From a virus, in IMG/VR virus record IMGVR_UViG_3300046519_000323, positions 1-64,000 of that record: DNA of 64,000 nucleotides. One strand, given 5' to 3'. Made by a program: the position numbers and the translations under genes. Below are positions 20,460 to 53,374 of this stretch, piece after piece. Each line of letters begins with the position of its first letter. The stretch's first letter is position 1. A model generated the notes under the pieces. The model saw only the letters and a program-made list of their open reading frames with translations. It was not told the DNA's origin and did no database searches.

Positions 20460-20497
20460 CGTTCAAATGTTCATATGTTTAAATGAACATTTGAAGC
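20460..20497. promoter_or_regulatory. 8-bp-register hexamer array A (5 units)
   Basis: cGTTCA aa TGTTCA ta TGTTTA aa TGAACA tt TGAAGC; arms form the 13-bp inverted repeat TTCAAATGTTCAT / ATGAACATTTGAA. Confidence 0.7.
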
Positions 20498-20552
20498 AAA
20501 AAAATGTGTTTACTATATTTGGGCGAATGGTAAGGGGCTATACAGGCTCATT

Positions 20553-21791
20553 TTAAGAATTATTCCACGTGTTATAAGGCTGTACATCAGCAAGAGGACA
20601 CCCAAAAGGATGACCATTTTCTTCTAAACGGCCAAATACATAACCATCTTCTACGCGGTCCAGTTTACCTATGCCTTGAATGCGTTTACCGTCAGTCTCA
20701 ACGCGGTTTAGAGACTCAAAATCTACATAAACCTTATCACCCGCTTTAAGTTCCTGAGGTCGCAATTCTAAAGACTGTCTCCAATCACCTTTGTAGGGAT
20801 TTTCGCCCCTTGTCAGATTGAAAAAAGCAGATAAGTGGGATTGATTACGCCACGCATTGCCAACAATATGCGGCGGTACCAGCCACCCGCATGCCATACC
20901 ATCCTCATCGGTTGCCATAGCTTTCACATGTTCAGGAATTTTTGACCAGTCATAAAGAGTTTTAGGCTCTTCAATTTTGACTAAATCAGTTTCATCCGAA
21001 TGTGCTTTATTTTCTATATTGGCAAAGATTTCCTCAGCTGTTTTCAAAGGCGTAGAAAATTCAAGACGCTTGTCTTTGTCATACAAATCGTCGCAACGGT
21101 TAAAATCAAATACACCCATGGCAGTCATGAAAATTGCTTGAATATAAGCAGGGTCAATATTTAATTCTTTAAGCTCTTTAGGTAATTGCTGATCGGTTGA
21201 TTTGACTACACGGCGATAAAAAGCCTGTGCAAAATTACAGGTATCAATCACATCAGGGCATTTGATTCGATGGAGTTGGTCACGCAACTTATTGCATTCA
21301 CCTCTTAACTCTTCTACTTTACGTTTAAGAAAGAGGTTCTGTTCAGTCTTAGCTAGTGCGCGTTTATTTGCTGTATCCAATTTTTCAGATAGATATTGCC
21401 AAACCCGATACTCTGCTTCACGTTCAGCTTCATTTGTTTCGTCAAAATATACGTTTTCATAAACAGCACGACTCTCTTCAGAATCAGAAAGATTATGTAG
21501 CTTTAAGGATTGCTGATAATGCCAATTAAGAAATTCAGAGCTGTATTTATTCATATATTTTTCCGCCATTGCAGCTGTATTCATGATTTGCGTATGTGAC
21601 CAATAAACGGCGCCGTGCTCCCCTTCTGCTTGCAGCCATAGAAACCACTTATTTAAGTAGGGTGACCAGGCAAGCAGCTGGCTGCCATCATTAGACTTAA
21701 AAAACTTTTGATACTCTGTATCATAGATTTCAGCATCTTCAGGCATTTCATTAAGCAGCTGGCAAGCCAAAGCAATGGTTAGATGCTTCAT
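20553..21791 (-). CDS. hypothetical protein
   Basis: 412-aa ORF. Confidence 0.55.
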   Translation of the reverse strand: MKHLTIALACQLLNEMPEDAEIYDTEYQKFFKSNDGSQLLAWSPYLNKWFLWLQAEGEHGAVYWSHTQIMNTAAMAEKYMNKYSSEFLNWHYQQSLKLHNLSDSEESRAVYENVYFDETNEAEREAEYRVWQYLSEKLDTANKRALAKTEQNLFLKRKVEELRGECNKLRDQLHRIKCPDVIDTCNFAQAFYRRVVKSTDQQLPKELKELNIDPAYIQAIFMTAMGVFDFNRCDDLYDKDKRLEFSTPLKTAEEIFANIENKAHSDETDLVKIEEPKTLYDWSKIPEHVKAMATDEDGMACGWLVPPHIVGNAWRNQSHLSAFFNLTRGENPYKGDWRQSLELRPQELKAGDKVYVDFESLNRVETDGKRIQGIGKLDRVEDGYVFGRLEENGHPFGCPLADVQPYNTWNNS

Positions 21792-22030
21792 AGTTTTCCC
21801 CGTGGTGTACGGCTGCCGATTAAACGCAAATCCATTTTTTTACCTAATTTAAGCTCAGGTTTAGCAGCTATACGCAAACCTGTTTTTGGTACCGAAATTT
21901 TTCTAGCTGCAGAGTGAAGTTCATAACATTTTGTCTTACCTTCATTGATTGCTACAACTTTATACAAAGCTAGATCGGCGGGATTGGTTCTCACTACGAT
22001 GTCACCAATCAGAAAATCCTGTTTGTTCAT
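21788..22030 (-). CDS. hypothetical protein
   Basis: 80-aa ORF, 4-nt overlaps on both sides. Confidence 0.5.
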   Translation of the reverse strand: MNKQDFLIGDIVVRTNPADLALYKVVAINEGKTKCYELHSAARKISVPKTGLRIAAKPELKLGKKMDLRLIGSRTPRGKL

Positions 22031-22527
22031 GCCTGCGCCGTCCCTTTATTTTCTTGTTCCAAATCCACCCCGCTTAAAGAATCATGAAGTTCATCTAACT
22101 TTTTGAAAAATTCATCAGGTAAATGATTTGGGTATGTTGTTGCAATTGAAGTTAATGCAGTCCATTTGGTTGTTGCTATCTCTAAACGCTTTTCAAGTTC
22201 TGCTAGGCGCTTTCTGTCCACTTCATGATGTTGCCATGACCAAAGACCACCCTCTTCACCACATTCATTTTCAAAAACATTTTGAGCTGATTCCTTTGGT
22301 AGCTTTGGTGCTCTTGGTTTTGGATGCCAAAATTCATCACCATTTAAAGCATTTCTGTCTTTATCGAAATGTAGTAATGAAAAGTGACAGTCATTTAAGA
22401 ATTTAAAACCTTCACCAGTTTTAATACTTTGATATACATGGCCTGCATCATCTGCATCGGCTAATGTTGGCAGCTGATCAACGGCGCGAATCCAACCGCC
22501 AAGATTAAATTTTGTTTGTTGGCTCAT
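22027..22527 (-). CDS. hypothetical protein
   Basis: Start moved to MSQQTKF (GGGGA SD 5 nt upstream); longest frame starts at 22557. Confidence 0.5.
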   Translation of the reverse strand: MSQQTKFNLGGWIRAVDQLPTLADADDAGHVYQSIKTGEGFKFLNDCHFSLLHFDKDRNALNGDEFWHPKPRAPKLPKESAQNVFENECGEEGGLWSWQHHEVDRKRLAELEKRLEIATTKWTALTSIATTYPNHLPDEFFKKLDELHDSLSGVDLEQENKGTAQA

Positions 22528-23392
22528 TGCCGTCCCCAAAAACTGAAATATAGTCATTAACCCATTGTTTTAATTTCGCTATAGAGGTGAAACCTTTATA
22601 AAGATCACGTTCAACACTTCTATCCATTTCCACCCATTCAGATTTGTTTGAGTCATAGCAACTGCTAGGGTTTTTAAAATACAAATTGCTTTTCCGTGAC
22701 CACACCTCAGCATCAGTTGGTGCTTGTTCTAAAATGTGTTTTGCTCGAGCAAAACCATTGCCGACCGCTTTGAATCTAAAATTTGCTAATGCCTCGATTT
22801 GCTCAATCGAATAGATGACATGCCTAACTTCTTCGACGTTTACATATACACCCGCAACATTCACAACAGGACCTAAACCATGTTGGGGGCTTATCGCCTC
22901 ATACCACTCAATTACACTTTTAACGTGTTCCATTGAGTTCTCTTTAATGAATTGAGCTGCAGGTATTTCTATTGGGGTAAAGATGGCCTTATATATATCT
23001 ATCCACTCTGTAAGGCTCTCAATCTCCCCTTTACTAACCCCAGCAAATTCAGAACCATACGAAATCAAGTATTCACGGTGTGCTTGAGCTTGAGCCAAAC
23101 CATTACCTTGTTTTGTTGCACGTGATTCAATTTTCTCAATTGCATAGAGTGCATGCTTAAGGTCCAAAATCTTAACCAAAGTCTCTAAGATGTTTTTATC
23201 ACCGTAATTAATTGAACTGGTGGCCCAATCATTTAAAGATTCGGAAAAGAACCACCAATGATCATCTTCAAACTTGTAATAAAGTGGGTTGCCACCATTG
23301 TCGCCGTAGTATGTGGCGCCCTTCAGCGCCTCATTAACTACTGTATGCGCAGCATCTACCCCTTCAGCTTTTATAAAATCTGTAGCTTTCAT
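22505..23392 (-). CDS. hypothetical protein with two internal repeats
   Basis: 295 aa; LKHALYAIEKIESRATKQGNGLAQAQAH.. repeated as VRHVIYSIEQIEALANFRFKAVGNGFARAKH.. Confidence 0.55.
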   Translation of the reverse strand: MKATDFIKAEGVDAAHTVVNEALKGATYYGDNGGNPLYYKFEDDHWWFFSESLNDWATSSINYGDKNILETLVKILDLKHALYAIEKIESRATKQGNGLAQAQAHREYLISYGSEFAGVSKGEIESLTEWIDIYKAIFTPIEIPAAQFIKENSMEHVKSVIEWYEAISPQHGLGPVVNVAGVYVNVEEVRHVIYSIEQIEALANFRFKAVGNGFARAKHILEQAPTDAEVWSRKSNLYFKNPSSCYDSNKSEWVEMDRSVERDLYKGFTSIAKLKQWVNDYISVFGDGNEPTNKI

Positions 23393-25957: not shown

Positions 25958-26672
25958 TCCATATTCTTAATGCGTAATAAATGTCAGCCAGCTCAATGTG
26001 AAAGACTTTATTAATAGTTAGAAGGGTGTTTTCATTTAGGTCGGTATATGTTTCACGCCAACTATCTAACATGGCTTCGTATGAGTGAAATATCATGCCA
26101 ATAGGCTCTATACGCTCACGTACACCAACTACTACGCCATCGCGTATTGTGTAAAAAGTATTGTAATAATCAGAGCTTTCCGCCCAATACGCTCGAACGA
26201 CGACGGCAGCAAACTCAGGTGCCGTTTCTAGGATTTTTCTAGCACTGTCCACCCCACCCGCTTGTGACAGGATGGTTGCGGCGAATGCATAAGAGATAGA
26301 CGGAACATTGATTAATGGCTGTTTAGACCCGTCTTTATGTTGACTAAACGTTTTAGTTTCTTCGTCGTACCAGTTGTCAATATCAGGGCTTTGGCTGCTA
26401 TACAAAATAGAGCGAGCACGGTCTTCACCGAATTGCTGTATGAATGCTGGATAATCGTAATCCGTTGCAATATCAGTACCGCAAAACGGGCAATGAGAAA
26501 TAATTGTTTTATCGTTGCCAGTGGTACCGACTGCAATCGTAAGGCGTTTTAAATCTAAAATTTGATTGCTGAACACTTGCTCATGAAAGCCAAACTTTTG
26601 ATGAACGGCGGCATTCGAAAGTGATTCACACATTTCGAGCCAATTACCCGTATTTTTACAAGCCATATTCAT
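25938..26672 (-). CDS. hypothetical protein
   Basis: 244-aa ORF; ..GGVDSARKILETAPEFAAV.. motif. Confidence 0.55.
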   Translation of the reverse strand: MNMACKNTGNWLEMCESLSNAAVHQKFGFHEQVFSNQILDLKRLTIAVGTTGNDKTIISHCPFCGTDIATDYDYPAFIQQFGEDRARSILYSSQSPDIDNWYDEETKTFSQHKDGSKQPLINVPSISYAFAATILSQAGGVDSARKILETAPEFAAVVVRAYWAESSDYYNTFYTIRDGVVVGVRERIEPIGMIFHSYEAMLDSWRETYTDLNENTLLTINKVFHIELADIYYALRIWNEENDL

Positions 26673-30781: not shown

Positions 30782-30809
30782 ATATTACAATAGTTTGCAT
30801 TTTGTTCAA
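30782..30809 (-). promoter_or_regulatory. sigma70-type promoter TTGAAC-16-TAATAT
   Basis: Minus strand: TTGAACaaaatgcaaactattgTAATAT; the -35 is a unit of array B. Confidence 0.55.
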
Positions 30810-30832
30810 TTGTTCTTTTGAACATATGAACA
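30803..30832. promoter_or_regulatory. 8-bp-register hexamer array B (4 units)
   Basis: TGTTCA at TGTTCT tt TGAACA ta TGAACA. Confidence 0.7.
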
Positions 30833-34254: not shown

Positions 34255-34284
34255 TGAACAAATGTTCAAATAAACATTTGTTCA
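34255..34284. promoter_or_regulatory. 8-bp-register hexamer array C (4 units)
   Basis: TGAACA aa TGTTCA aa TAAACA tt TGTTCA. Confidence 0.7.
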
Positions 34285-40427: not shown

Positions 40428-40457
40428 TGAACATTTGTTCATTTGAACATTTGTTCA
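40428..40457. promoter_or_regulatory. 8-bp-register hexamer array D (4 units)
   Basis: TGAACA tt TGTTCA tt TGAACA tt TGTTCA, perfectly alternating. Confidence 0.75.
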
Positions 40458-44010: not shown

Positions 44011-44040
44011 AAAAAAAGTATACCTCGATGGGTATACTTT
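44011..44040 (-). terminator. rho-independent terminator
   Basis: GTATACC / GGTATAC hairpin with T7 on the minus strand, after 44072..44260. Confidence 0.7.
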
Positions 44041-44071
44041 GAATTAGAAAACCATAAAAAGAAAATTATAT

Positions 44072-44664: not shown

Positions 44665-44678
44665 ATATAACTCTTAAT

Positions 44679-44716
44679 TGTTCAAATGTTCATTTAAACA
44701 TATGTTCAAATGAACA
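44679..44716. promoter_or_regulatory. 8-bp-register hexamer array E (5 units)
   Basis: TGTTCA aa TGTTCA tt TAAACA ta TGTTCA aa TGAACA. Confidence 0.7.
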
Positions 44717-44723
44717 TTTGAGA

Positions 44724-45599
44724 TTAAACAAAATCTGCTTTTAAAGGTGTAATCCCTTTTTCTAACAATAAGTTAAGGGATGTTTCATTCACTGGGGTTT
44801 TGGTATAGATCACTTCAGATAAACCATATCTTAATAAGCCGTTTAAACAATATTGACAAGGGATGTCATCAACAAGCGTACCAACTTCACCAATCTCGGC
44901 TGCAGCATTACCACTACTCAAATTTAAGCGTGCCATTGCAGCGGAATGTACGTAAGGAGTCGGATTATCACGCTCACATAAATGACTTTTGAGCATTCCG
45001 TCATGACGCGAATCAAAACCTAAAGAAATAATTCGATATTTCGAGCCTAGCTTTTGATACACCAGACACGCACCCATAAGACCATAATTTGCATGGGAAC
45101 GTACCCGTCTGAGTACAGACTCAAGCTCGTTTAATGAAAAATATTTATTTCTAATTTGGCTTTCTAATTCATCTTTAATCAAAATGTGTTTATGAAAGCC
45201 TGCATTAACTTCTTGCTCAACATAAATCATACCCGACTTAAGATTTTTAACACCGTATCTCAAGACCACATAACGCGAATCACCTTTAGCGTTACGCATC
45301 TTTCTTAATGAAACAGTAGATGTCTTTAAATATGCTGCTAGGGCTTTCTGACGTCCGCTACCTCGCTGCATCCAGCTTTTAAGACGTTTATGAACACGCA
45401 CCGCTTGTTTTTCTTCGACCTCAATTAATTCCATTGTCTTTCTAATTTCAGACATGAGCGTGTTATCCACTTTATAAGTGAATATCATGGAGTGAAGGGT
45501 TTGACGCTTAATACCCAGCATTCTAGCAAGCTGGGATAAACGGCCACGGCGCCGACAAAGCCATTTATTTAGATTTTTATATTCATTAAGTAAGTTCAT
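44724..45599 (-). CDS. double-HTH protein fused to a dCMP/CMP-deaminase-like fold lacking the catalytic Glu
   Basis: 291 aa; HTH-like LSQLARMLGIKRQTLHSMI and QKALAAYLKTSTVSLRKM; C-part GACLVY..YRIISLGFDS..VHSAAMA..(27 aa)..PCQYC..GLSEVIY parallels GAvIV..rIis.GYNG..HAE..PC..C..GIk.VvY. Confidence 0.5.
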   Translation of the reverse strand: MNLLNEYKNLNKWLCRRRGRLSQLARMLGIKRQTLHSMIFTYKVDNTLMSEIRKTMELIEVEEKQAVRVHKRLKSWMQRGSGRQKALAAYLKTSTVSLRKMRNAKGDSRYVVLRYGVKNLKSGMIYVEQEVNAGFHKHILIKDELESQIRNKYFSLNELESVLRRVRSHANYGLMGACLVYQKLGSKYRIISLGFDSRHDGMLKSHLCERDNPTPYVHSAAMARLNLSSGNAAAEIGEVGTLVDDIPCQYCLNGLLRYGLSEVIYTKTPVNETSLNLLLEKGITPLKADFV

Positions 45600-46420
45600 G
45601 CAGTTAGTCCCGTAAATAAATCTGGTTGCTTTTCAGCTTGAGGGTTAATCCATAAAATTTCTTGCCTGCCCACTGAGCCATTTTGCCCCGAAGCTGCAAC
45701 GGTTTTATTTACTTTCTTCCATCCCAATCGATCATATAAATCATTGTCATAGCCACATAAGATCACTTTACCCTGAACATGCTGAAGTAACTTAATAAGT
45801 TCTTCATGTTGTTCATTAGTCATTTCATGCGTATAAGCATCACCTCCCAATTTACGACAATCATGTAAATAAGGCGGGTCTAAAAAAAATAGTGTGCTGG
45901 GACGATCATGTTCACGAATAACTTGTAAAGCGTCCCTTTTCTCAACCATGACTTTTTTGAAGCGTTCTGCAGCTTGCTCAATTAAGTCACCTTGCCGATT
46001 CCAAATCGTTATAAGATCGGTGCAACCTCGTGCTGTATCTGATCTAAAACCTGTACTACTTTTCGTTGAGCCTGTGCTTCCGAACCCCATTTGTGCTTTA
46101 ACGATTAAACGGCGTGCTCGTTCAATTTCATCGCTAGAAAATTCTTTTGCTGCAATAAATTCACTTCTTGAATAAGGCGTATGATCAATAACATGTTTCA
46201 AAATTTGAGATTTTTTCGGGCAACGTAATACCTTAAAAAAATTTACTATTTCATCATCAATATCGTTATAAACTTCTACCCGGCTAGGCGTCTTTTCTAG
46301 TAAGACTGAAGCCGCACCACCAAATGGCTCAACATAAGTTTCATGGTGTGGGAAAAACGAAATAATCCAGCTTGCAAGACGAAATTTACCGCCATGATAG
46401 CGAAGTAATGGATGTTGCAT
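45596..46420 (-). CDS. dam: DNA N6-adenine methyltransferase (Dam / D12 class)
   Basis: Start moved to MQHPLLRYHGGK (AAGGGGA SD right after the upstream stop); motifs YHGGK, EPFGGAASV, DPPY. Confidence 0.8.
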   Translation of the reverse strand: MQHPLLRYHGGKFRLASWIISFFPHHETYVEPFGGAASVLLEKTPSRVEVYNDIDDEIVNFFKVLRCPKKSQILKHVIDHTPYSRSEFIAAKEFSSDEIERARRLIVKAQMGFGSTGSTKSSTGFRSDTARGCTDLITIWNRQGDLIEQAAERFKKVMVEKRDALQVIREHDRPSTLFFLDPPYLHDCRKLGGDAYTHEMTNEQHEELIKLLQHVQGKVILCGYDNDLYDRLGWKKVNKTVAASGQNGSVGRQEILWINPQAEKQPDLFTGLTA

Positions 46421-46430
46421 TACATTCCCC

Positions 46431-47393
46431 TTATATGACTTCGATAGTGCTGGTTTGGCGATAACTACCCCAATCGCAATTAACAACAAGAATGCGGCCA
46501 CTTTCGAGAAAACGGTCAGCCGATCGGCTTCCTATTAATTTTTCGAGCTCGGTATGAGCAATGTTTGATGTAATTAACGTCGGTAGTCGTTGCTTGTACC
46601 GAGCGTCGAGTATTGTTGTATAGGCTTCAAATAAATATGAACTTGACGCTAGGCTGCCCACGTCATCAATGCATAGGACAGGAACTCTGGAAAGATAACT
46701 GTAAATTTCTTTCGTAGTAGTTCTGCAGTCCTTTTTCCAAGTTTCCTGAATATCATTAATTAGCTGTGCTTCGGTGATGAATACACAACGTAATTTATTT
46801 TCATAATAAATATCGTTCACATGCTTTGTTTTGCACTTCACTGACCGCTTGATGATGTTTTGCAGAAATATACTAGCCATGGCTGTCTTGCCTGCGCCCA
46901 TATCTCCTGACAGAAGTATATTTCTGCTATCCACTGCCGTACCTTTGGCAATAATCGCTTGAAGTTCTTTAATCAGAGCACTGATAATTAATTTTTGTCT
47001 TGGGCTCTTAGTCACATCAAGAGCTTCAAAAGTTTGATGAATACTATTTTTGGGTATTTTAGCCTTTTTATATTCATCAAAGATTCTTTGATTTGTTGCA
47101 TCCGTTAAAGCTTCATAATTCCCTGCAGAATTACACTCGTAACAAGTACCTTCAACAGATTTAGCAATCATTTGAGGTACTTGGATTTGATTAAATCCAT
47201 GAACCTCACAGCCTACGCGGACAGATTGTACGGAAATGTGGTTTTGTATCTCCATTCCTTCTAAACGGTTTTCACGCTCTTTCAATTCTTTATCGCAAAA
47301 AGGGCAATTTGAATCACCACTGTTTTTGAACTTTCGGTAGATACCGTGCGAAGAACAGGTAAATTCATTGTATAAGTCAGCCATTGCACCCAT
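46431..47393 (-). CDS. DnaC/IstB-like AAA+ helicase loader
   Basis: 320 aa; Walker A SGDMGAGKT, Walker B LCIDDVG; N-terminal CxxC pairs. Confidence 0.65.
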   Translation of the reverse strand: MGAMADLYNEFTCSSHGIYRKFKNSGDSNCPFCDKELKERENRLEGMEIQNHISVQSVRVGCEVHGFNQIQVPQMIAKSVEGTCYECNSAGNYEALTDATNQRIFDEYKKAKIPKNSIHQTFEALDVTKSPRQKLIISALIKELQAIIAKGTAVDSRNILLSGDMGAGKTAMASIFLQNIIKRSVKCKTKHVNDIYYENKLRCVFITEAQLINDIQETWKKDCRTTTKEIYSYLSRVPVLCIDDVGSLASSSYLFEAYTTILDARYKQRLPTLITSNIAHTELEKLIGSRSADRFLESGRILVVNCDWGSYRQTSTIEVI

Positions 47394-47396
47394 TTC

Positions 47397-48371
47397 CTAA
47401 AAACCTTCAAAGTTGAATAACTGGTCTTCAGGAACCTCAACCGTTGGCACCTTCTCAGCTCTTTGATCTGAATTATTTAAGATGAACCGGCTAAAATCTT
47501 TAGAAGGTTTTTTAAAAGAGCTGTTTTGAGCAGGTTGGTTGTAATGATCTGAACTTCCTAAGGCTCTCATACGAGCGAAGTGTGCTCTTTGTCCAGCTGG
47601 TGAATGATGGATTTTCAAAAGAAACTTAATCAGATTATTTAAACGTTGATGATCATTCAAATTTTTATATTGATCATGGTTTGCGTTGAAATCAATAAGG
47701 TAGGTATCTAGTTGCTCTTGAGTTTGAATCATTGAGCCTAAACCTGCCATTTGTAAACGACCAAAAAATATTGGTTCTTTCAGTAGAACCCTGTATTTCT
47801 CAAGTAGTTCATTTCTTTTTTCCATGTCCCCTCCCCTATTAATCTTATTAAAATTATTACTTCTTAAATCATTGTATTTATTAGTGGTGGGTTCACCGCT
47901 AACGGAAAAGCCGTTTTCGGCTTCAGCTTTGTTTTCATCAATATCATCAAAATTAAAGCCAAGTTGAGCATCAGAAAGCATTGCTTCTTGAGTATCTTCA
48001 GAAGCTCGATCTTCAGCTTGAGCTATAATTTTTGTGTCTATTGGTGATTCAAAGATTTGATAGACAACTTTGCCAAAAGTGCCATCTTCATTTTTTAACT
48101 GAGTACGTTTGATATACCCAGCTTGTTCAAGACGGTTAAGCATGCCTTGAATTGCATCACGGCCTTCTTTACCCCTTTTTACTAGCGCTTGTATACAAAC
48201 CCTGTGTTTGTCACCCCACGACAACAATTCAACAAGTAAACCTTTATCGGCACGTTTTATATTCGGGTCCCGTAAAAGTTTGTTAGAGAGAACGGTATAA
48301 GGGTTTTCTTTGCTGTGCTCAGCACGATAGATGGTCCTTTGCAGAACATCCAGTACAGCCATATTGGTCAT
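47397..48371 (-). CDS. phage replication initiator (winged-helix, O/DnaD-like)
   Basis: 324 aa; ..PYTVLSNKLLRDPNI..ADKGLLVELLSW..GRDAIQGMLNRLEQAGYI..; precedes the loader gene. Confidence 0.55.
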   Translation of the reverse strand: MTNMAVLDVLQRTIYRAEHSKENPYTVLSNKLLRDPNIKRADKGLLVELLSWGDKHRVCIQALVKRGKEGRDAIQGMLNRLEQAGYIKRTQLKNEDGTFGKVVYQIFESPIDTKIIAQAEDRASEDTQEAMLSDAQLGFNFDDIDENKAEAENGFSVSGEPTTNKYNDLRSNNFNKINRGGDMEKRNELLEKYRVLLKEPIFFGRLQMAGLGSMIQTQEQLDTYLIDFNANHDQYKNLNDHQRLNNLIKFLLKIHHSPAGQRAHFARMRALGSSDHYNQPAQNSSFKKPSKDFSRFILNNSDQRAEKVPTVEVPEDQLFNFEGF

Positions 48372-48388
48372 TGTTAAATCCTAAAAAA

Positions 48389-48670
48389 TTAGTCCCGAAG
48401 AATCTGATCTACTTTTACAGCTCCCTTTGTCAGCTCTTCTAATGTCCGCGCAACGTTGTACGGAACAGGAACCTCCCCCGATAAATAACGACTAATAGTC
48501 CCCTGAGAACAATCAAAAGCTACAGCGGCAGCTTGTTGATTACAGAATTGAATACGCACAGTTGTTTGAAACTTACGTAACTTCTTCTGATCTTCAGCAT
48601 TTAAAGAATCAAATAATTCTTTACGTCGCTGAGCTAATTCAGCTCGTTTTATGTCTTTCAAGTTTTGCAT
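48389..48670 (-). CDS. Cro-like HTH regulator
   Basis: 93 aa; ..CSQGTISRYLSGEVPVP..; divergent from the cI-like gene. Confidence 0.65.
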   Translation of the reverse strand: MQNLKDIKRAELAQRRKELFDSLNAEDQKKLRKFQTTVRIQFCNQQAAAVAFDCSQGTISRYLSGEVPVPYNVARTLEELTKGAVKVDQILRD

Positions 48671-48709
48671 AAATGTATCTGAAATAACTTTTATGTATTA
48701 AAGGATGCA

Positions 48710-48738
48710 ATAATATGCGGAAATGTATAAATGTTCAA
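48710..48738 (-). promoter_or_regulatory. promoter of the cro-replication operon, TTGAAC-17-TATTAT
   Basis: Minus strand TTGAACatttatacatttccgcaTATTAT; spacer/-10 overlapped by the degenerate box TATgCgGAAATGTATA (48714-48729). Confidence 0.55.
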
Positions 48739-48801
48739 TCTAAACGTATAAATGTAAGTACGATTCTGTCTACTGGTATTTGATACGCATAATGCATAAA
48801 A

Positions 48802-48829
48802 TTGACTTGGGTTTATACATTAATGTAAA
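48802..48829 (+). promoter_or_regulatory. putative repressor promoter (TTGACT -35) overlapped by a TATACA-type operator
   Basis: TTGACT at 48802-48807; operator TATACATTAATGTAaA at 48814-48829 covers the spacer and the weak -10 (TGTAAA). Confidence 0.45.
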
Positions 48830-48908
48830 AAGTGTGGTATACGTATCACATTCCAAGAATGTATTGATTCATTTATTAAATTATAATTTTATGACCAGAG
48901 GAACTAAG

Positions 48909-49619
48909 ATGTCGCATAGTCTTAACGAACTTAATAATAAGAATGAAAGTATTGGGGATAGAATCACTCGGCTTTTGCTTGAGAGAAAATCTGATCAATA
49001 TCAATTAGCTAATGAATGTAAAACAACACAAGCGACTATTAGTAGAATTATGAGCGGTAAGGTTAGTAATAGTAAATTTTTGCCAGCTATTGCACAGGCT
49101 CTTAACGTTTCTGTCGGTTATTTATTATTTGGCGGAGAAACAGACGCTCAAGTCGAAGAATACAGTACAGAGCAATTGCGTATACATCAAAATGATTTTA
49201 TGCTTATCCGCAAGTATGAGAACGTATTAGAAAATAATGAAGATACGCATACAAAAAAGAAAGCAGAGGACATGTTGATGTTAAAGAGTTTAATTCCGCC
49301 GGGGTCTACTTCAGAAGATTTACGTTACATTTTGGTTCAAGATCATTCAATGTCTCCGAAGATTCCAATAGACGCAAGGGTTTGTTTTACAACGAAAGAG
49401 ACAACTGTTATCGCTGGTAAAGCATATGCTATTAAGTATGGTTCACTAGACGAACAGATTCGTTATTTATACCCTCAACCTGATGGCGGATTACGTATCC
49501 GTGTAACACCAGAGCAATCAGATGAGTTTCCAGAAATGATCGTTCCGCCCACTGAGATCAAGGAAAAAATCTTTAAAGTGCTTGGTAGGGTTTTTAGTGT
49601 TACAAGCTCTTGGATTTAA
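48909..49619 (+). CDS. cI/LexA-type repressor (HTH + S24 peptidase domain)
   Basis: Start moved to MSHSLNEL (GAGGAA SD); HTH ..QLANECKTTQATISRIMSG..; Ser in DHSMSP and Lys in AGKAY. Confidence 0.75.
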   Translation: MSHSLNELNNKNESIGDRITRLLLERKSDQYQLANECKTTQATISRIMSGKVSNSKFLPAIAQALNVSVGYLLFGGETDAQVEEYSTEQLRIHQNDFMLIRKYENVLENNEDTHTKKKAEDMLMLKSLIPPGSTSEDLRYILVQDHSMSPKIPIDARVCFTTKETTVIAGKAYAIKYGSLDEQIRYLYPQPDGGLRIRVTPEQSDEFPEMIVPPTEIKEKIFKVLGRVFSVTSSWI

Positions 49620-49640
49620 AATAATTTTTATAATCAATCA

Positions 49641-49664
49641 ACGGGCGAAAAAGCCCGTTTTTTA
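49641..49664 (+). terminator. rho-independent terminator after the repressor gene
   Basis: ACGGGC GAAAAA GCCCGT followed by T6. Confidence 0.8.
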
Positions 49665-49775
49665 TTGCCTAATACATTGAAAAATACGAAAAAATACAAT
49701 GTTTTTAATTTTTTTGCGTTTTTTACAAATATTTACTAAAACTCTCGGGTATCTTTTTTACGTTTTTATGCATAC

Positions 49776-49804
49776 TTGCATAATTATATACAGAAGTGTA
49801 TATT
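49776..49804 (+). promoter_or_regulatory. promoter TTGCAT-17-TATATT with embedded operator
   Basis: TATACAGAAGTGTATA (49787-49802) overlaps the spacer and -10. Confidence 0.6.
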
Positions 49805-49834
49805 TTGAATTATTCTTTATGTGGAATTAAAAGC

Positions 49835-50176
49835 ATGCAAAAAATAATCGATGTAAGTGAAAATAACCCTGAAGACCTGAATCATTTAACAGCTTCCCCT
49901 GCATCTCTTAATCAATTAAGAGATAAAGCAAAGTTCATACTCGGCTTAGCTTTGGAAGTTGAGAAGTCTATTCGTAATTTAATGACCGCCCTCTTCGCTA
50001 TTCGTATCGTCCAAATACTTACCTCTTTTGTGATTGTCACTGCCTTGTTCTATGCATTTCTCATTTACGGTGTAGATGCCCAAGAAACAGAAAATCAAGG
50101 TCGCTATCAGGCTAATCAGAAATACATTCAATTGGTTGAGGCTAAAAACCCAGAGGGAATATATATTTCTAAGTAA
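49835..50176 (+). CDS. small membrane protein next to the repressor gene
   Basis: Start moved to MQKIIDV; TM LFAIRIVQILTSFVIVTALFYAFLIYGV. Confidence 0.5.
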   Translation: MQKIIDVSENNPEDLNHLTASPASLNQLRDKAKFILGLALEVEKSIRNLMTALFAIRIVQILTSFVIVTALFYAFLIYGVDAQETENQGRYQANQKYIQLVEAKNPEGIYISK

Positions 50177-50177
50177 A

Positions 50178-50231
50178 TGTTCATTTGAACAAATAAACAA
50201 ATGAACAAATGAACAAATGAACAAATGAATA
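50178..50231. promoter_or_regulatory. 8-bp-register hexamer array F (7 units, mostly direct)
   Basis: TGTTCA tt TGAACA aa TAAACA aa TGAACA aa TGAACA aa TGAACA aa TGAATA, running into a perfect TATAAT (50230-50235). Confidence 0.7.
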
Positions 50232-50250
50232 TAATAGGTTGCATTTTTAT

Positions 50251-50547
50251 ATGGCTCAACGTGAAAGTATAGTTTGTCCGGCTTGTGGCAATAGATTGTT
50301 TTATGCCTTGGAAGTAAGGGTTTTACAAAAGCGTTTAGTAGACCCTAAAACTGGGGCTCTTATGAAGAGAATCTCATCTAATGTTCTACCTACAGAATAT
50401 GAAGAACATTTGTTATGTGAAAGTGAACAATGTCTTTTTGTAATAACCAAAGGCAACAATGATTATCACAATTACATGCATCTTTTTGATAAACCAAATA
50501 CCTCTGATCTTAGTGTTTTCAAAAAAGCTGTATACACAATTTTTTAA
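50251..50547 (+). CDS. hypothetical zinc-ribbon protein
   Basis: Start moved to MAQRESIVCPACGN; second Cys pair CESEQC. Confidence 0.45.
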   Translation: MAQRESIVCPACGNRLFYALEVRVLQKRLVDPKTGALMKRISSNVLPTEYEEHLLCESEQCLFVITKGNNDYHNYMHLFDKPNTSDLSVFKKAVYTIF

Positions 50548-50549
50548 TA

Positions 50550-50587
50550 AGTTCATTTGTTCAAATGAACAAATGTTCAAATAAACA
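50550..50587. promoter_or_regulatory. 8-bp-register hexamer array G (5 units)
   Basis: aGTTCA tt TGTTCA aa TGAACA aa TGTTCA aa TAAACA. Confidence 0.7.
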
Positions 50588-50645
50588 TTAACGGTACATT
50601 CTATTTTATTTAATCTGCAGGTTTGAGATTGCTCAAATAGATTGG

Positions 50646-50691
50646 TGAACATACAAACATTTGAACAAATGAACATTTGTTCAAAGGAACA
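50646..50691. promoter_or_regulatory. 8-bp-register hexamer array H (6 units)
   Basis: TGAACA ta cAAACA tt TGAACA aa TGAACA tt TGTTCA aa gGAACA; 17 nt before the erf start. Confidence 0.7.
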
Positions 50692-50707
50692 TTAGATAGG
50701 TGATTTT

Positions 50708-51439
50708 ATGCAAACTGGATTTAACTTAAATAATAATCTTGCTAGTGACTTACGTGGTGTACAGGTTGTACATGCAATTGCTGCGGTTCATAAAGTTCTT
50801 GTAAAAATGGGTATAGCTAAATCTCGCCGTACAAATAGCACAAACACAAAATTTACGAACTATAATTTTCGTAGTATTGATGATATGTATAACGTCATTT
50901 CGCCTTTGATGGCCGAGAATGGACTTTTATGTATTCCCACTGTAAAAGATACCAAAATTACAGAAAATAAAAATCAACACGGCGGTATTGCCCGTCATGC
51001 AGTTGTCACGGTTTCATATAATTTTATTAGTGTTGATGATGCTTCGATCATTACTGCAGAAATGGTGGGGGAAGCAATTGACACTGCTGATAAAGCCATA
51101 AGTAAAGCTTTAAGTATGGCTCAAAAAGGGCTTTTTGAGCAGGCATTCTCTATACCGACAAGACCTTTTACGAATGATGTTTCTCAACAATCGTTCCAGC
51201 GTGAACAAACTCAATTACCGAATAACGCACCAAACCCTTTACGCAATTTAAATGCTCCTGACTATCATGAATTAGATGCTTTTATAAATTTATTGGGCTC
51301 TATTGGTTGTAGCTTTGAACGTTTTCTTAAACAACGTAGCATCACAGAAAATCAAATTACCCGTGAAGTGCTGAAACAAGAAACAATTAATATCGAGAAA
51401 TATTTGAACCAACAAGGTGCGCCAACCCACCAATACTAA
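50708..51439 (+). CDS. erf: ERF-family single-strand annealing protein
   Basis: 243 aa; ..NYNFRSIDDMYNVISPLMAENGL.. and ..DTADKAISKALSMAQKGLFEQAFSIPT follow the ERF pattern (DKa..KA.s.A.K....F.IPt). Confidence 0.65.
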   Translation: MQTGFNLNNNLASDLRGVQVVHAIAAVHKVLVKMGIAKSRRTNSTNTKFTNYNFRSIDDMYNVISPLMAENGLLCIPTVKDTKITENKNQHGGIARHAVVTVSYNFISVDDASIITAEMVGEAIDTADKAISKALSMAQKGLFEQAFSIPTRPFTNDVSQQSFQREQTQLPNNAPNPLRNLNAPDYHELDAFINLLGSIGCSFERFLKQRSITENQITREVLKQETINIEKYLNQQGAPTHQY

Positions 51440-51450
51440 CCTTTCTTTAA

Positions 51451-51520
51451 TGAACATTTGTTCAAATGAACAAATGTTCATTTGATTAAAAGAACGTTTG
51501 AACTATTGAACATATGAAGT
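51451..51520. promoter_or_regulatory. 8-bp-register hexamer array I (9 units), candidate parS/operator
   Basis: TGAACA TGTTCA TGAACA TGTTCA TGATTA aGAACg TGAACt TGAACA TGAAgt at 51451, 459, 467, 475, 483, 491, 499, 507, 515. Confidence 0.7.
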
Positions 51521-51533
51521 TAATCGGTACAAT
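51506..51533 (+). promoter_or_regulatory. parA promoter TTGAAC-16-TACAAT
   Basis: The -35 is unit 8 of array I. Confidence 0.55.
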
Positions 51534-51664
51534 ACCTGAAAATACTTCTTTTAAAGGGCAGTGCCTTACTTCTCTTAGATATTAAACATATTCGTTCTGG
51601 CCCGATCTACTTGTAAATAATGATCTAAAGCCGAACTATCATATAAATAAATTGGATTTAAGAT

Positions 51665-52303
51665 ATGACGACAAAATATATCTCAACGCTTCAGCTGAAG
51701 GGCGGGGCGGGTAAAACTACAATCGCAAGTAATCTTATTGGTTATTTCCTTTCTAAAAATAAAAAAGTCTTGGGCGTTGATGCCGATATGCAACAAGGTA
51801 CTTTGCATGCCTGGTCAAAACTTTTTAAACACCCTAAATTTGAATGTGTAGGGGTTAACAGTCTTGAAGAGTTAATTTCTGTTCTTCGTGAGGCTCAAGA
51901 AAAATTTGATATCGTTATTACTGACCTACCTCCGCGGCTAGCTGATATTGCACGATCAAGTTTAGTTTTTAGTGATGTCGTTTTGATTCCCGTTGCTATT
52001 TCATCGCCTGATGTTTGGGCTGCTATGGACTTAACAAAACTTATTGAAGCTGCCAAAAGCGAAAGCGATAACGCAAAGGTTCGCATGGTATGGAATAGGT
52101 TTAAACCAACTAAACGCAAAATTGAGGCTAAAGAAGAAGTAAAGCAGCTTCTAGGGCACGATGAAATTAAACAATATATTTCTGACTATGTAGCTTATTC
52201 CGATGTGCTGGGTTTAGGTACTTGGGTGGGGGAACATAATCACGAAAAAGCTAAAACAGAATTTTTGGCCTTTGCCAAAGAAGTAGAAAAGTTAATTAAG
52301 TGA
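51665..52303 (+). CDS. parA: ParA-type partition ATPase
   Basis: 212 aa; deviant Walker A KGGAGKTT near the N-terminus. Confidence 0.85.
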   Translation: MTTKYISTLQLKGGAGKTTIASNLIGYFLSKNKKVLGVDADMQQGTLHAWSKLFKHPKFECVGVNSLEELISVLREAQEKFDIVITDLPPRLADIARSSLVFSDVVLIPVAISSPDVWAAMDLTKLIEAAKSESDNAKVRMVWNRFKPTKRKIEAKEEVKQLLGHDEIKQYISDYVAYSDVLGLGTWVGEHNHEKAKTEFLAFAKEVEKLIK

Positions 52304-52316
52304 AACGGTAATTTTT

Positions 52317-52583
52317 ATGACTAAAGCAAAGATGAATTTTGTAAAACCTACAGGTGAAGAAAAACCTCAAAATGACCGTTTTGGGGCTGCAGTTGAGTTT
52401 GCAAAGGCTTCAAAAGAAGTTGTTGAAGGCTCTAAAGATGAAGCGCGTGAAAATTGGGATTGCCCCAATAATTTACGTAAAGAGCTTAAGCAGTTTGTTG
52501 CAGGTTCGACGCGTTTCGCAACTAAGAAAGAGTTTTTAACACAGTGTTTAATTGATGGATTAAAGAACTATAAAGGTCAATGA
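52317..52583 (+). CDS. small partition adaptor, ParG/omega-like (predicted RHH C-terminus)
   Basis: 88 aa directly after parA; flexible basic/acidic N-part, then ENWDCP (strand) NNLRKELKQFVAGS (helix) TRFATKKEFLTQCLIDGLKNY (helix). Confidence 0.45.
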   Translation: MTKAKMNFVKPTGEEKPQNDRFGAAVEFAKASKEVVEGSKDEARENWDCPNNLRKELKQFVAGSTRFATKKEFLTQCLIDGLKNYKGQ

Positions 52584-53263
52584 AAAAGGCTATCGGTTAT
52601 GTCCGTGTTAGTACGGAAAAACAAGTAAGCGAAGGTGTTTCTATTGACGCACAGGTTGAGCGTATTAAAGCATGGGCGCTAATTAATGATTATGAACTTG
52701 TCGAGGTTTACTTTGATGAGGGTATTTCTGGTGCGACCTTTTCTAAACGTGAAGGCATTAATAAAGCTTTAGCGAATGTTGAAAAAGGTATGGCATTTGT
52801 TTGCTATAGCTTAAGTCGTGTAAGTCGTCATCTTGAAGATACCTTGATGATTGGCAAAATTATTCAGAATGCTGGCGCCGATCTTGTAAGCCTTACTGAG
52901 CAAATTGATACAACAACTGCTTCAGGCAAAATGATTTTTAATCTCTTTGGGGTTTTGAATCAATTTGAACGAGATCAGGTTGCTGAGCGTACACGTACGG
53001 CCATGCAATTCTTGAAAGCTAATAATAAAGCTTATACTCATCCGCCATATGGCTTTGATCGTCGTGGCGATGACTTTGTTGAAAATGAGGCTGAGAAACG
53101 AGTCATTGAATTGATGCTTGAGCTTAGGCAAAAAGGTTACGGTCACCGAAAAATAGCAACCCATCTTAATAAAAATGCAATTTATGCAAAAAATGGCGGG
53201 TTGTGGCATCCAAAAACCGTAAAAGGTGTATTAGATCGTATTGAAGGTGTTAAAACAGAATGA
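52580..53263 (+). CDS. serine recombinase (probable multimer resolvase)
   Basis: 227 aa; catalytic YVRVSTEKQ; C-part PPYGFDRRGDDFVENEAEKRVIELM..GYGHRKIATHLN like the start of the large-serine-recombinase 'recombinase' domain. Confidence 0.75.
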   Translation: MKKAIGYVRVSTEKQVSEGVSIDAQVERIKAWALINDYELVEVYFDEGISGATFSKREGINKALANVEKGMAFVCYSLSRVSRHLEDTLMIGKIIQNAGADLVSLTEQIDTTTASGKMIFNLFGVLNQFERDQVAERTRTAMQFLKANNKAYTHPPYGFDRRGDDFVENEAEKRVIELMLELRQKGYGHRKIATHLNKNAIYAKNGGLWHPKTVKGVLDRIEGVKTE

Positions 53264-53352
53264 TTAATACGGAAATTATCAAACATAGATTTTAAATACA
53301 TTTTATGTATAAATTAATTGACAATTATGCATATAGCCTAAGATTCTATGTA

Positions 53353-53374
53353 TGTTCAAATGAACATTTGAACA
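53353..53374. promoter_or_regulatory. 8-bp-register hexamer array J (3 units)
   Basis: TGTTCA aa TGAACA tt TGAACA in the convergent gap between the recombinase and RHH genes. Confidence 0.6.

What the first reader, a model, noticed from the sequence alone, without database searches (positions are those of the whole stretch)
20460..53374. Ten dispersed arrays of TGTTCA/TGAACA hexamers on a strict 8-bp register, each at the head of a transcription unit
Seen directly. The arrays are at:
- 20460-20497 (5 units)
- 30803-30832 (4 units)
- 34255-34284 (4 units)
- 40428-40457 (4 units)
- 44679-44716 (5 units)
- 50178-50231 (7 units)
- 50550-50587 (5 units)
- 50646-50691 (6 units)
- 51451-51520 (9 units)
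- 53353-53374 (3 units)

That is about 50 units in total. Each unit is TG(T/A)(T/A)CA plus two A/T bases. Orientation flips inside arrays, which produces overlapping 14-bp palindromes (TGTTCAwwTGAACA, equivalent to GAAC-N4-GTTC).

Every array is intergenic and lies just upstream of a gene start. Several supply the -35 hexamer TTGAAC of otherwise good promoters: 30782-30809, 51506-51533, and a single unit at 48733-48738.

Contiguous short units of mixed orientation, at less than one helical turn and placed in front of many operons including parA, are the hallmark of RHH regulator/centromere proteins. Examples are omega of pSM19035 (7-bp heptads) and ParG on parH of TP228 (4-bp boxes every 8 bp). 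Functionally the layout also recalls KorB of RK2 and the dispersed C1 operators of P1.

Inference: one small element-encoded protein could coordinate partition, erf, the methyltransferase operon, early phage operons and a small RNA.
Basis: partly seen in the sequence, partly recalled or inferred. Interest (0 to 1): 0.85.

Follow-up and report, generated by a model that had tools for sequence, protein, structure and literature searches.

The report
Partition-protein operator arrays across a phage-plasmid
Ten conserved arrays of an 8-bp repeat (TGTTCA or TGAACA plus two A/T bases) in an Acinetobacter phage-plasmid are most likely binding sites for the small ribbon-helix-helix protein encoded next to parA, which would let one partition protein also control many phage and plasmid operons, as omega does in pSM19035.

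Summary
All arrays lie in the 8% of the window that is non-coding.

The window is part of an ~88-kb Acinetobacter phage-plasmid with a Rep_3 replicon, myovirus-type structural genes, a cI/Cro switch, erf, and parA followed by an 88-aa gene and a resolvase.

Evidence that the 88-aa protein binds the arrays (indirect; no binding was measured):
- The arrays keep their positions in relatives (A. baumannii, A. seifertii, A. soli pGFJ2, IMG/VR contigs). They are 89% identical where the surrounding intergenic DNA is 60%.
- The 88-aa protein belongs to an unannotated family. A naturally duplicated homolog models as a tandem ribbon-helix-helix fold whose best PDB matches are TraY.
- Every relative examined (13 loci) has short boxes upstream of parA, on the 8-bp register or as paired palindromes. 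The box changes with residue 46 of the predicted beta-strand: Asn with TGTTCA, Ser with TGATCA or TGCTCA, Val with TGATTT. It does not follow overall relatedness.

Rep iterons, cI/Cro operators, a host factor and the 61-aa RHH protein (probably an anti-CRISPR-associated regulator) are disfavoured.

Verdict: a new variant of a known kind, resembling ParG/parH and omega. Whether the dispersed arrays repress transcription is untested. Two details of the finding fail: the array at 53353 heads no gene in this window, and the single unit at 48733 is not conserved.

The parts
51451..51520 (.). Array of 9 units upstream of parA. Proposed main centromere and operator.
   Evidence: Its last units overlap the promoter TTGAAC(51506)-N16-TACAAT(51533). 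Array and promoter are conserved in the A. baumannii relative L007. Every relative has repeats at this position.
51665..52303 (+). parA: a small (212 aa) Walker-type partition ATPase with no N-terminal DNA-binding domain (type Ib).
   Evidence: Pfam AAA_31 4.5e-19 and CbiA 2e-12; PHROG 164 ParA-like 5e-37. NCBIfam ParA_partition scores 128 bits, below its cutoff of 180.
52317..52583 (+). 88-aa proposed centromere-binding protein and regulator. Conserved N-terminal tail (K10-P11, F22; R21 in most members) and a C-terminal ribbon-helix-helix domain (strand about 44-50 RENWDCP, helices 51-63 and 70-85).
   Evidence: No Pfam, NCBIfam or PDB sequence match. AF2 monomer shows an extended segment plus two helices, pLDDT 74-82. 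The tandem-domain homolog P0095 models as beta-alpha-alpha twice and matches TraY, a tandem RHH protein. Residue 46 covaries with the repeat box.
52580..53263 (+). Serine resolvase whose start overlaps the stop of the 88-aa gene. Probably the third gene of the par operon, for multimer resolution.
   Evidence: Pfam Resolvase 5.2e-37. Conserved after the 88-aa gene in most relatives.
53353..53374 (.). Array of 3 units downstream of the par-res operon, between convergent genes.
   Evidence: Conserved in A. baumannii and A. seifertii relatives that lack the neighbouring acr cassette. Its position recalls parC2 of pB171 (my knowledge, not checked here).
50646..50691 (.). Array of 6 units ending 16 bp before the erf start codon.
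   Evidence: Almost identical in L007 while the flanks diverge. pGFJ2 has arrays in the same place.
50550..50587 (.). Array of 5 units, 120 bp upstream of erf. It is followed by TTAACGGTACATT, which resembles the parA -10 region.
   Evidence: Conserved in relatives.
50178..50231 (.). Array of 7 units whose last units overlap a perfect TATAAT (50227-50232), ending 19 bp before the start codon of the 98-aa Cys4 gene (50251-50547).
   Evidence: Present with 3-7 units in relatives.
44679..44716 (.). Array of 5 units ending 14 bp before the start of the 135-aa gene (44257-44664, minus strand).
   Evidence: Conserved in L007, L010, L013, L033 and at the syntenic site of pGFJ2 (12398-12419).
40428..40457 (.). 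Array of 4 perfect alternating units ending 10 bp before the 90-aa gene, which is followed by a C5 cytosine methyltransferase (38679-40148, minus strand). A terminator-like hairpin lies upstream.
   Evidence: Conserved in IMG/VR relative L033 at 911-940.
34255..34284 (.). Array of 4 units, 32 bp upstream of the likely start (34222) of a gene for a protein with a hydrophobic, signal-peptide-like N-terminus (minus strand).
   Evidence: Conserved in L035 at 2323-2352.
30803..30832 (.). Array of 4 units overlapping the -35 of promoter 30809-30782 (minus strand). The promoter drives a structured, terminator-containing leader ahead of the 675-aa tail-lysozyme gene.
   Evidence: Conserved in L035 (5774-5803) and syntenic in pGFJ2 (26433-26462).
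20460..20497 (.). Array of 5 units (2 perfect) ending 10 bp before the 209-aa gene (19820-20449, minus strand), at the border of the structural gene block.
   Evidence: The array is identical in L036, where the downstream protein is only 57% identical.

Best explanation
The window is part of an Acinetobacter phage-plasmid, and the arrays most likely form the binding-site set of its type Ib partition system.

Proposed mechanism:
- The 88-aa protein encoded directly after parA is a ribbon-helix-helix dimer with a flexible N-terminal tail.
- One dimer reads one TGTTCA/TGAACA box through its two-stranded beta-ribbon. The conserved Arg44 pair would contact the outer TG/CA, and residue 46 the central two base pairs.
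- Dimers coat contiguous boxes cooperatively at 8-bp spacing, in either orientation, as ParG does on ACTC boxes spaced 8 bp apart.
- The 9-unit array upstream of parA serves as centromere and auto-operator, because it overlaps the parA promoter.
- The other nine arrays sit on or just ahead of the starts of erf, a Cys4 protein gene, two methyltransferase-region operons, a secreted-protein gene, the tail-lysozyme leader and the first gene next to the structural block. They let the same protein damp or silence those units in the plasmid-prophage state, and may add centromere capacity.

Shown here: the arrays, their conservation, the fold, and the covariation between box and beta-strand.
Inferred: the binding itself, one dimer per box, repression, and partition activity.
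For: 1. The arrays are real and non-random.

2. They are under selection.
- All ten positions are kept in IMGVR_UViG_2657245607_000004. The six positions within the fetched +/-10 kb are kept in the A. baumannii and A. seifertii loci.
- Several are syntenic in pGFJ2, whose proteins are 30-77% identical.
- Against L007, array columns are 89% identical and other intergenic columns 60%. Changes inside arrays are often orientation flips or AA/TT spacer swaps that keep the register.

3. Gene context is the canonical type Ib layout: repeats, a 212-aa ParA, then a small protein.

4. The small protein is RHH.
- The AF2 monomer has an extended segment at 44-50 followed by two helices.
- Natural tandem-duplicated homologs exist.
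- One of them models as beta-alpha-alpha twice. Its top ten PDB matches are TraY (probability 1.00, TM 0.61-0.69), followed at much lower probability (0.18) by VirC2.

5. Box sequence covaries with the beta-strand across 13 relatives.
- RxN[WF]D goes with TGTTCA in 8 relatives plus the window: L001, L007, L013, L020, L022, L023, L026, L034. L030 has the same strand and two TGTTCA palindromes.
- RESWE goes with TGATCA (L025).
- RQSYD goes with TGCTCA/TGAGCA (L029).
- REVFD goes with TGATTT (L015, L017; L028 encodes the identical protein, but its DNA was not inspected).
- L025 is closer to the window overall than pGFJ2 is, yet L025 has the changed box and strand while pGFJ2 keeps both.

6. Other repeat systems are distinct.
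- Rep_3 iterons are 12 repeats of 21 bp at 43363-43843.
- The cI-cro region has its own repeats.

7. The arrays are specific to this element family.
- A 3-unit pattern occurs in only 2 of 2.9 million IMG/VR contigs, and both are relatives.
- Only pGFJ2 matches among 72,556 plasmids.

8. Precedents exist.
- ParG loads one dimer per box, with boxes 8 bp apart in direct and inverted orientation, and the operator doubles as centromere (PMC3130281).
- Omega needs at least 4 contiguous heptads and coordinates copy-number control, partition and a toxin-antitoxin system (PMC9499535; PMC4627068 abstract).
Against: - No binding, footprint or expression data exist.
- The protein has no sequence-level similarity to any RHH family: Pfam, NCBIfam and PDB searches were negative, and hhalign against ParG gave 0.2% probability.
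- The fold assignment rests on AF2 models with mean pLDDT 66-67 built from an 11-sequence alignment. The model of the window's own protein gave no meaningful Foldseek match.
- The covariation rests on few independent changes: two Ser lineages and one Val lineage. Other element-encoded proteins diverge along the same tree.
- For six arrays no good sigma-70 promoter could be placed, so repression at those sites is conjecture.
- More distant relatives (L022, L023, L026, L030) have paired 14-bp palindromes at about 17-bp spacing rather than a continuous 8-bp register. The unit of recognition could therefore be the palindrome.
- Host chromosomes could not be scanned.
Confidence: 0.66

Rival explanations
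1. The 88-aa protein binds all the arrays, but the dispersed arrays act only as extra centromeres or partition-complex nucleation sites with no regulatory role, like the four scattered SopB sites of N15.
For: - Most arrays have 4 or more contiguous units. That is the number omega needs on parS to activate its ParA (PMC9499535).
- Several arrays lack a recognisable overlapping promoter.
- One array lies between convergent genes.
- N15 uses four separate IR sites (PMC7205306).
Against: - Six arrays end 10-32 bp from a start codon, and two or three overlap -35 hexamers. A pure centromere role does not require that placement.
- No array lies inside the 92% of the window that is coding.
- Known RHH centromere proteins (ParG, omega) repress where their sites overlap promoters.
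Confidence: 0.15
2. A different element-encoded DNA-binding protein reads the arrays. Candidates are the cI-like S24 repressor (48780-49619), the Cro-like protein (48389-48670), the XRE-like 223-aa protein (31812-32483) and the 98-aa Cys4 protein (50251-50547).
For: - TGTTCAwwTGAACA contains GAAC-N4-GTTC, a palindrome that a dimeric repressor could read.
- cI, Cro and the XRE protein are conserved in pGFJ2.
- The largest perfect array directly precedes the Cys4 gene.
Against: - Runs of direct repeats at 8 bp (for example six TGAACA-oriented units in a row at 50186-50231, four of them perfect) do not fit a palindrome-reading HTH dimer.
- The cI-cro intergenic region has no array, only its own repeats (ATGTATAAATGT, ATGCATAAAAT).
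- The cI and Cro recognition helices are nearly unchanged in L025 and L015, where the box is TGATCA and TGATTT.
- The Cys4 protein is missing from most relatives that keep the arrays.
- The 61-aa RHH protein is absent from A. baumannii relatives and pGFJ2, and belongs to an AcrIF11 cassette.
Confidence: 0.12
3. A host (Acinetobacter) factor binds the arrays, and the phage-plasmid has plugged its promoters into a host regulon.
For:
- The motif contains a Cheo-box-like GAAC-N4-GTTC.
Against: - Related elements in the same genus use different boxes at the same positions (TGTTCA, TGATCA, TGCTCA, TGATTT). A constant host factor would not predict this.
- The pattern is essentially confined to this element family in IMG/VR and PLSDB, which includes many other Acinetobacter plasmids.
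- Acinetobacter lacks a canonical LexA (my knowledge, not tested here).
Confidence: 0.05

Closest known systems
ParF/ParG with parH and the OF operator of plasmid TP228 (type Ib partition)
   Same: - A small ParA is followed by a small RHH protein with a flexible N-terminal tail.
- Binding boxes recur every 8 bp with A/T-rich spacers, in direct and inverted orientation.
- One dimer binds per box (shown for ParG, PMC3130281; inferred here).
- The array upstream of the ATPase gene is both operator and centromere.
   Different: - The box here is 6 bp plus a 2-bp spacer, not 4 plus 4.
- There is no detectable sequence similarity to ParG.
- ParG sites are confined to the par locus, whereas here nine further arrays are spread over 33 kb in front of phage and plasmid genes.
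- The host replicon is a phage-plasmid.
Omega (ParB of pSM19035 and other inc18 plasmids)
   Same: - An RHH protein binds contiguous short repeats of mixed orientation at less than one helical turn.
- The same protein is both centromere-binding protein and regulator of several operons.
- Arrays of 4 or more units are the functional size (PMC9499535; PMC4627068).
- A serine recombinase belongs to the same maintenance region.
   Different: - Omega uses 7-bp heptads at three promoter types, in Firmicutes plasmids.
- Here the units are 8 bp, at ten sites, in a Gammaproteobacterial phage-plasmid.
- The targets include recombination, methylation and tail-lysozyme units.
- The protein family is unrelated in sequence.
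Dispersed centromere or operator sets of phage-plasmids and IncP plasmids: N15 SopB IR1-4, KorB OB sites of RK2, P1 C1 operators
   Same: One element-encoded protein has sites scattered over the replicon, some at promoters, linking maintenance and gene expression. N15 IR1-4 is covered in PMC7205306. KorB and P1 C1 are from my knowledge.
   Different: - Those proteins are HTH proteins that bind single palindromes. SopB and KorB are type Ia ParB proteins.
- Here the protein is an RHH type Ib centromere-binding protein that coats multi-unit arrays.
TraY (F plasmid relaxosome) and VirC2, single-chain tandem RHH proteins
   Same: TraY is the closest structural match to the family's tandem-domain member P0095. 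VirC2 follows at much lower probability (0.18). This shows that the domain is RHH and that it pairs with a second copy.
   Different: The similarity is in fold only (13-15% identity). TraY acts at oriT in conjugation and is not a partition protein. The window's protein has a single domain and would have to dimerise.

Membership tests
Type Ib ParABS partition locus (small ParA plus RHH centromere-binding protein) | Walker-type ParA of about 200-220 aa with no N-terminal HTH domain | tested here: met
   212 aa. Pfam AAA_31 and CbiA, PHROG ParA-like. NCBIfam ParA_partition covers 6-206 of the protein but scores below its cutoff (128 against 180 bits).
Type Ib ParABS partition locus (small ParA plus RHH centromere-binding protein) | Small protein gene immediately downstream of parA in the same operon | tested here: met
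   52317-52583 starts 14 bp after the parA stop. The arrangement is the same in all 13 relatives examined.
Type Ib ParABS partition locus (small ParA plus RHH centromere-binding protein) | Centromere-binding protein has a ribbon-helix-helix fold | tested here: met
   The window protein's AF2 model has an extended strand followed by two helices. Tandem homolog P0095 models as a closed RHH pair whose best PDB matches are TraY. This is model-based and of moderate confidence; there is no sequence-level support.
Type Ib ParABS partition locus (small ParA plus RHH centromere-binding protein) | Array of short repeats next to the operon that acts as centromere and auto-operator | tested here: met
   A 9-unit array at 51451-51520 overlaps the parA promoter. 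Repeats occupy the same position in every relative. Function was not tested.
Type Ib ParABS partition locus (small ParA plus RHH centromere-binding protein) | Protein binds the repeats, stimulates the ParA ATPase and stabilises the plasmid | not testable with these tools
   Needs EMSA or footprinting, ATPase assays and plasmid-stability assays.
ParG family (Pfam ParG) and omega family (Pfam Omega_Repress) | Sequence membership: profile match above threshold | tested here: not met
   None of the 20 family members hits any RHH, ParG or omega Pfam model at E of 1 or below. A PDB profile search finds nothing.
Omega-like global regulator (functional class) | The same repeat arrays occur at promoters of several unrelated operons on the replicon | tested here: met
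   Ten arrays lie in nine intergenic regions, conserved in relatives. Overlap with promoters is clear for only two or three of them.
Omega-like global regulator (functional class) | Transcriptional repression at those promoters | not testable with these tools
   Needs reporter fusions or RNA-seq with and without the protein.
Rep_3 iterons | Direct repeats of about 19-22 bp next to the rep gene | tested here: not met
   The real iterons are a separate set: 12 copies of about 21 bp (AGAGACAAGTTGTACGG...) at 43363-43843. They are unrelated to the 8-bp units.
LexA/Cheo-box or cI-type operators (palindrome read by an S24 repressor dimer) | Isolated palindromic operators at regulated promoters, including the repressor's own divergent promoter region | tested here: not met
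   - The arrays include long runs of direct repeats.
- The cI-cro region has no array, only different repeats.
- The cI recognition helix stays the same where the box changes.

The most novel reading that the evidence does not exclude
A previously unannotated RHH family serves as both the partition adaptor and the master silencer of an Acinetobacter phage-plasmid lineage, so that prophage gene expression is tied to the partition machinery. In addition, the family would show a simple natural recognition code: beta-strand residue 46 (Asn, Ser or Val) sets the central base pairs of a TGnnCA box. That would allow incompatibility and immunity groups to diversify by single substitutions, and would make the protein a compact programmable DNA binder.
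Probability: 0.35. Interest if true: 0.7.

Novelty: new variant of a known kind. Interest (0 to 1): 0.55.

Why it matters
- **Clinical relevance.** The element family is common in Acinetobacter, including A. baumannii. One homolog of the 88-aa protein is recorded on 95 contigs of up to 114 kb. It is not the described 'AB' phage-plasmid group, which is about 110 kb and carries recA and ParB (PMC7969092).
- **Biology.** If the reading is right, one 88-aa protein links plasmid partition with control of recombination, methylation and lysis-related genes in a phage-plasmid. That would be an omega-like circuit in a Gram-negative phage-plasmid, built from a protein family with no current annotation.
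- **Testability.** The ten arrays give a ready-made ChIP and reporter test set.
- **Specificity.** The covariation between residue 46 and the box centre gives a specific, cheap prediction about RHH recognition and about incompatibility between related elements.

Tried and rejected
- **Nucleotide searches.** Megablast of 44000-56000 against the phage and plasmid collections found nothing.
- **Protein search in phages.** tblastn of the 88-aa protein against phages found nothing. Erf found only distant phages.
- **First genome scan.** The single-sequence scan of the genome collection found no relative. The profile-based rescans found only a few loci.
- **Sequence-based fold assignment.** Pfam, NCBIfam, PDB profile search and hhalign against ParG were all negative.
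- **Foldseek on the window protein's monomer model.** The output was noise, because the N-terminal tail is floppy and the strand has no partner. Modelling a natural tandem-domain homolog solved this.
- **Rfam.** No known RNA family in the window.
- **Literature.** Nothing found on these arrays. pGFJ2 is mentioned only in a catabolic-gene paper.
- **Rep iterons.** Rejected, because a separate 21-bp set exists.
- **cI or Cro as binder.** Disfavoured.
- **61-aa RHH protein as binder.** Rejected, because it is absent from relatives and linked to an anti-CRISPR gene.
- **98-aa Cys4 protein and 126-aa protein.** Rejected, because they are not conserved with the arrays.
- **Single TGTTCA at 48732.** Rejected as part of the system.
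- **Promoter placement.** A simple consensus scan gave convincing promoters for only two or three arrays.

Full report
**Observation**

- Of 52 units, 36 carry a perfect TGTTCA or TGAACA, 11 have one mismatch and 5 have two. All 42 internal spacers are A/T dinucleotides.
- The window has 82 perfect hexamers against 46 +/- 7 in Markov shuffles. Neighbouring hexamers lie exactly 8 bp apart 19 times against 0.02 expected.
- A chain scan recovers the ten arrays plus two weak chains with no perfect unit. Shuffles give about one chain.
- All arrays lie in the 8% of the window that is non-coding. None lies in the structural-gene block (1-20000) or in 54000-64000.

**What the element is**

The 88-aa protein is encoded with an identical sequence on JGI metagenome contigs of about 88 kb. 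The gene content is that of a phage-plasmid:
- Myovirus-type structural genes: tail sheath, a terminase large subunit that appears to carry an intein, and tail fibres.
- A Rep_3 initiator with 12 iterons of 21 bp.
- A divergent cI-like (S24) and Cro-like gene pair, then erf.
- A 212-aa ParA, the 88-aa gene and a serine resolvase.

Relatives:
- A. soli plasmid pGFJ2, syntenic, with proteins 30-77% identical.
- 81-86-kb contigs of A. baumannii and A. seifertii.
- An A. defluvii plasmid, A. lwoffii, Acinetobacter sp. ANC 3813, and several IMG/VR and metagenome contigs.

This is not the published 'AB' phage-plasmid group.

**The arrays are conserved**
- All ten positions are kept in IMGVR_UViG_2657245607_000004. 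The six positions within the fetched +/-10 kb are kept in the A. baumannii and A. seifertii loci.
- pGFJ2 has arrays upstream of parA, upstream of erf (two), at the site syntenic with 44679, and upstream of the tail-lysozyme gene.
- Against L007, array columns are 89% identical and the rest of the same intergenic regions 60%. Changes inside arrays are often orientation flips or AA/TT spacer swaps that keep the register.
- The array at 20460 is identical in a relative whose downstream protein is only 57% identical.
- A three-unit alternating pattern occurs in only two of 2.9 million IMG/VR contigs, both relatives. Only pGFJ2 matches in PLSDB.

**Who binds**

The 88-aa protein has no Pfam, NCBIfam or PDB sequence match. 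An exhaustive search gives a family of 82-117-aa proteins. Family members share:
- a conserved N-terminal K-P...R-F...A..FA segment,
- a variable linker,
- a conserved C-terminal R-E-N-[WF]-D...F...F...F..QC..DGL..Y domain.

Structural evidence:
- AF2 on the window protein gives an extended segment at 44-50 followed by helices 51-63 and 70-85, with pLDDT 74-82 in that domain. As a monomer model it gave no useful Foldseek match.
- Two family members carry the C-terminal domain twice in one chain.
- One of these, P0095, models as beta-alpha-alpha twice with both strands assigned as beta (taken to be paired with each other) and pLDDT about 80.
- Its ten best PDB matches are all TraY, the tandem ribbon-helix-helix protein of the F relaxosome (probability 1.00, TM 0.61-0.69). 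VirC2 comes next at probability 0.18.

The domain is therefore RHH, and the window protein would form the fold as a homodimer.

**Covariation between protein and DNA box**

Every relative examined has short boxes upstream of parA. In most they lie on the 8-bp register. In L022, L023, L026 and L030 they form 14-bp TGTTCAwwTGAACA palindromes about 17 bp apart. The box sequence tracks the beta-strand:

| Predicted beta-strand | Box | Loci |
|---|---|---|
| R-x-N-[WF]-D | TGTTCA/TGAACA | window, L001 (pGFJ2), L007, L013, L020, L022, L023, L026, L030, L034 |
| R-E-S-W-E | TGATCA | L025 |
| R-Q-S-Y-D | TGCTCA/TGAGCA | L029 |
| R-E-V-F-D | TGATTT | L015, L017 (L028 encodes the identical protein; its DNA was not inspected) |

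- L025 is closer to the window overall than pGFJ2 is (cI 57% against 45%, the 88-aa protein 51% against 40%). Yet L025 has the altered strand and box, while pGFJ2 keeps both.
- The cI and Cro recognition helices stay nearly the same across these classes.
- The cI-cro region has its own repeats and no array.
It lies downstream of an AcrIF11-family anti-CRISPR gene (66.9 bits, cutoff 50), so it is probably an Aca-type regulator.
- The 98-aa Cys4 protein and the 126-aa protein are not conserved with the arrays.

**Mechanism (inferred)**

By analogy with ParG, one dimer would bind each box, boxes being 8 bp apart with A/T spacers, in either orientation, and the operator would double as centromere (PMC3130281). 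By analogy with omega, contiguous repeats with at least four needed would let one protein coordinate several maintenance functions (PMC9499535; PMC4627068).
- The 88-aa protein is proposed to coat each array.
- At parA the array overlaps TTGAAC-N16-TACAAT, which is conserved in L007. This fits autoregulation plus centromere function.
- At 30803 the array overlaps the -35 of a promoter that drives a structured leader with an intrinsic terminator (z = -4.9), ahead of the tail-lysozyme gene.
- Six arrays end 10-32 bp from a start codon. That suggests promoter occlusion or a roadblock, but I could not place convincing promoters there.
- The array at 53353 lies after the par-res operon between convergent genes. 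It may be a second centromere site, as in parC2 of pB171 (my knowledge), or it may control an unannotated transcript.

**Rivals**
- The dispersed arrays are extra centromeres only: 0.15.
- Another element-encoded protein binds them: 0.12.
- A host factor binds them: 0.05. This is disfavoured because the box differs between related elements in the same genus, but host chromosomes were not scanned.

**Verdict**

It is best filed as a new variant of the RHH centromere-binding-protein and global-regulator theme (ParG, omega). It is carried by an unannotated protein family in a common Acinetobacter phage-plasmid lineage. Binding and regulation still need experiments.

Noticed in passing
window 53414-54048 (minus strand): The 149-aa gene (53599-54048) matches the AcrIF11-family anti-CRISPR ADP-ribosyltransferase model above its cutoff (66.9 against 50 bits). 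The 61-aa RHH-like gene just downstream (53414-53599) is probably its Aca-type regulator. The cassette is absent from the A. baumannii, A. seifertii and pGFJ2 relatives.
   Followed up: partly
window 43363-43946: Probable replication origin upstream of the Rep_3 gene (41993-43255). It has twelve iterons of about 21 bp (AGAGACAAGTTGTACGG...), eight of them nearly contiguous at 43657-43843, followed by four CTAAAAC-type repeats (11 and 21 bp apart) at 43886-43946.
   Followed up: partly
window 30609-30776 (minus strand): The promoter overlapped by array 30803 is followed by a strongly structured leader (-48 kcal/mol, z = -4.9). The leader contains an intrinsic terminator (CCCCATAAAG...CTTTATGGGG followed by eight T) about 70 nt before the tail-lysozyme start codon. 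It is conserved in an IMG/VR relative, with one compensatory pair in the first hairpin. There is no Rfam match. It could be an attenuator or a small RNA.
   Followed up: partly
window 53334-53342; also L001 12348, L007 11017, L013 11018, L015 11053, L017 6651, L025 6340: The 9-mer TAGCCTAAG is conserved just downstream of the par operon in seven divergent elements, including some with no resolvase gene at that position. In the window it lies about 10 bp upstream of array 53353 (18 bp start to start). Its function is unknown.
   Followed up: no
proteins P0009 and P0095 (metagenome contigs of 6.5 and 9.3 kb): Two members of the 88-aa family carry the C-terminal domain twice in one chain. This is a natural single-chain version of the dimer, as in TraY.
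   Followed up: yes
window 48671-48908: The cI-cro intergenic region has its own repeat set (ATGTATAAATGT and ATGCATAAAAT types), partly conserved in relatives. These are presumably the immunity operators. They are unrelated to the 8-bp arrays.
   Followed up: partly
window 44257-44664; L001 about 11200-11350; L015 about 9210-9350; L018 4203-4373: The 135-aa protein just downstream of array 44679 contains two copies of an HG(T/R)...Y...C-R-C..C motif (KHGT, then NHGRT). In pGFJ2, the A. defluvii plasmid and L017/L018, a small ORF of about 50-56 aa with the same motif lies between the repeats and parA. The window has no such ORF there.
   Followed up: no
window 12038-14014 (minus strand): The terminase large subunit appears to be interrupted by an intein. 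The pGFJ2 ortholog is annotated as a Hint-domain homing endonuclease, and the PHROG terminase match covers only part of the 658-aa protein.
   Followed up: no
window 38679-40148, 40529-41785, 45596-46501: The early region carries three DNA methyltransferase genes: two C5-cytosine and one D12-class adenine. Array 40428 lies between the two C5 genes, ahead of the 90-aa gene and the 38679-40148 methylase.
   Followed up: no
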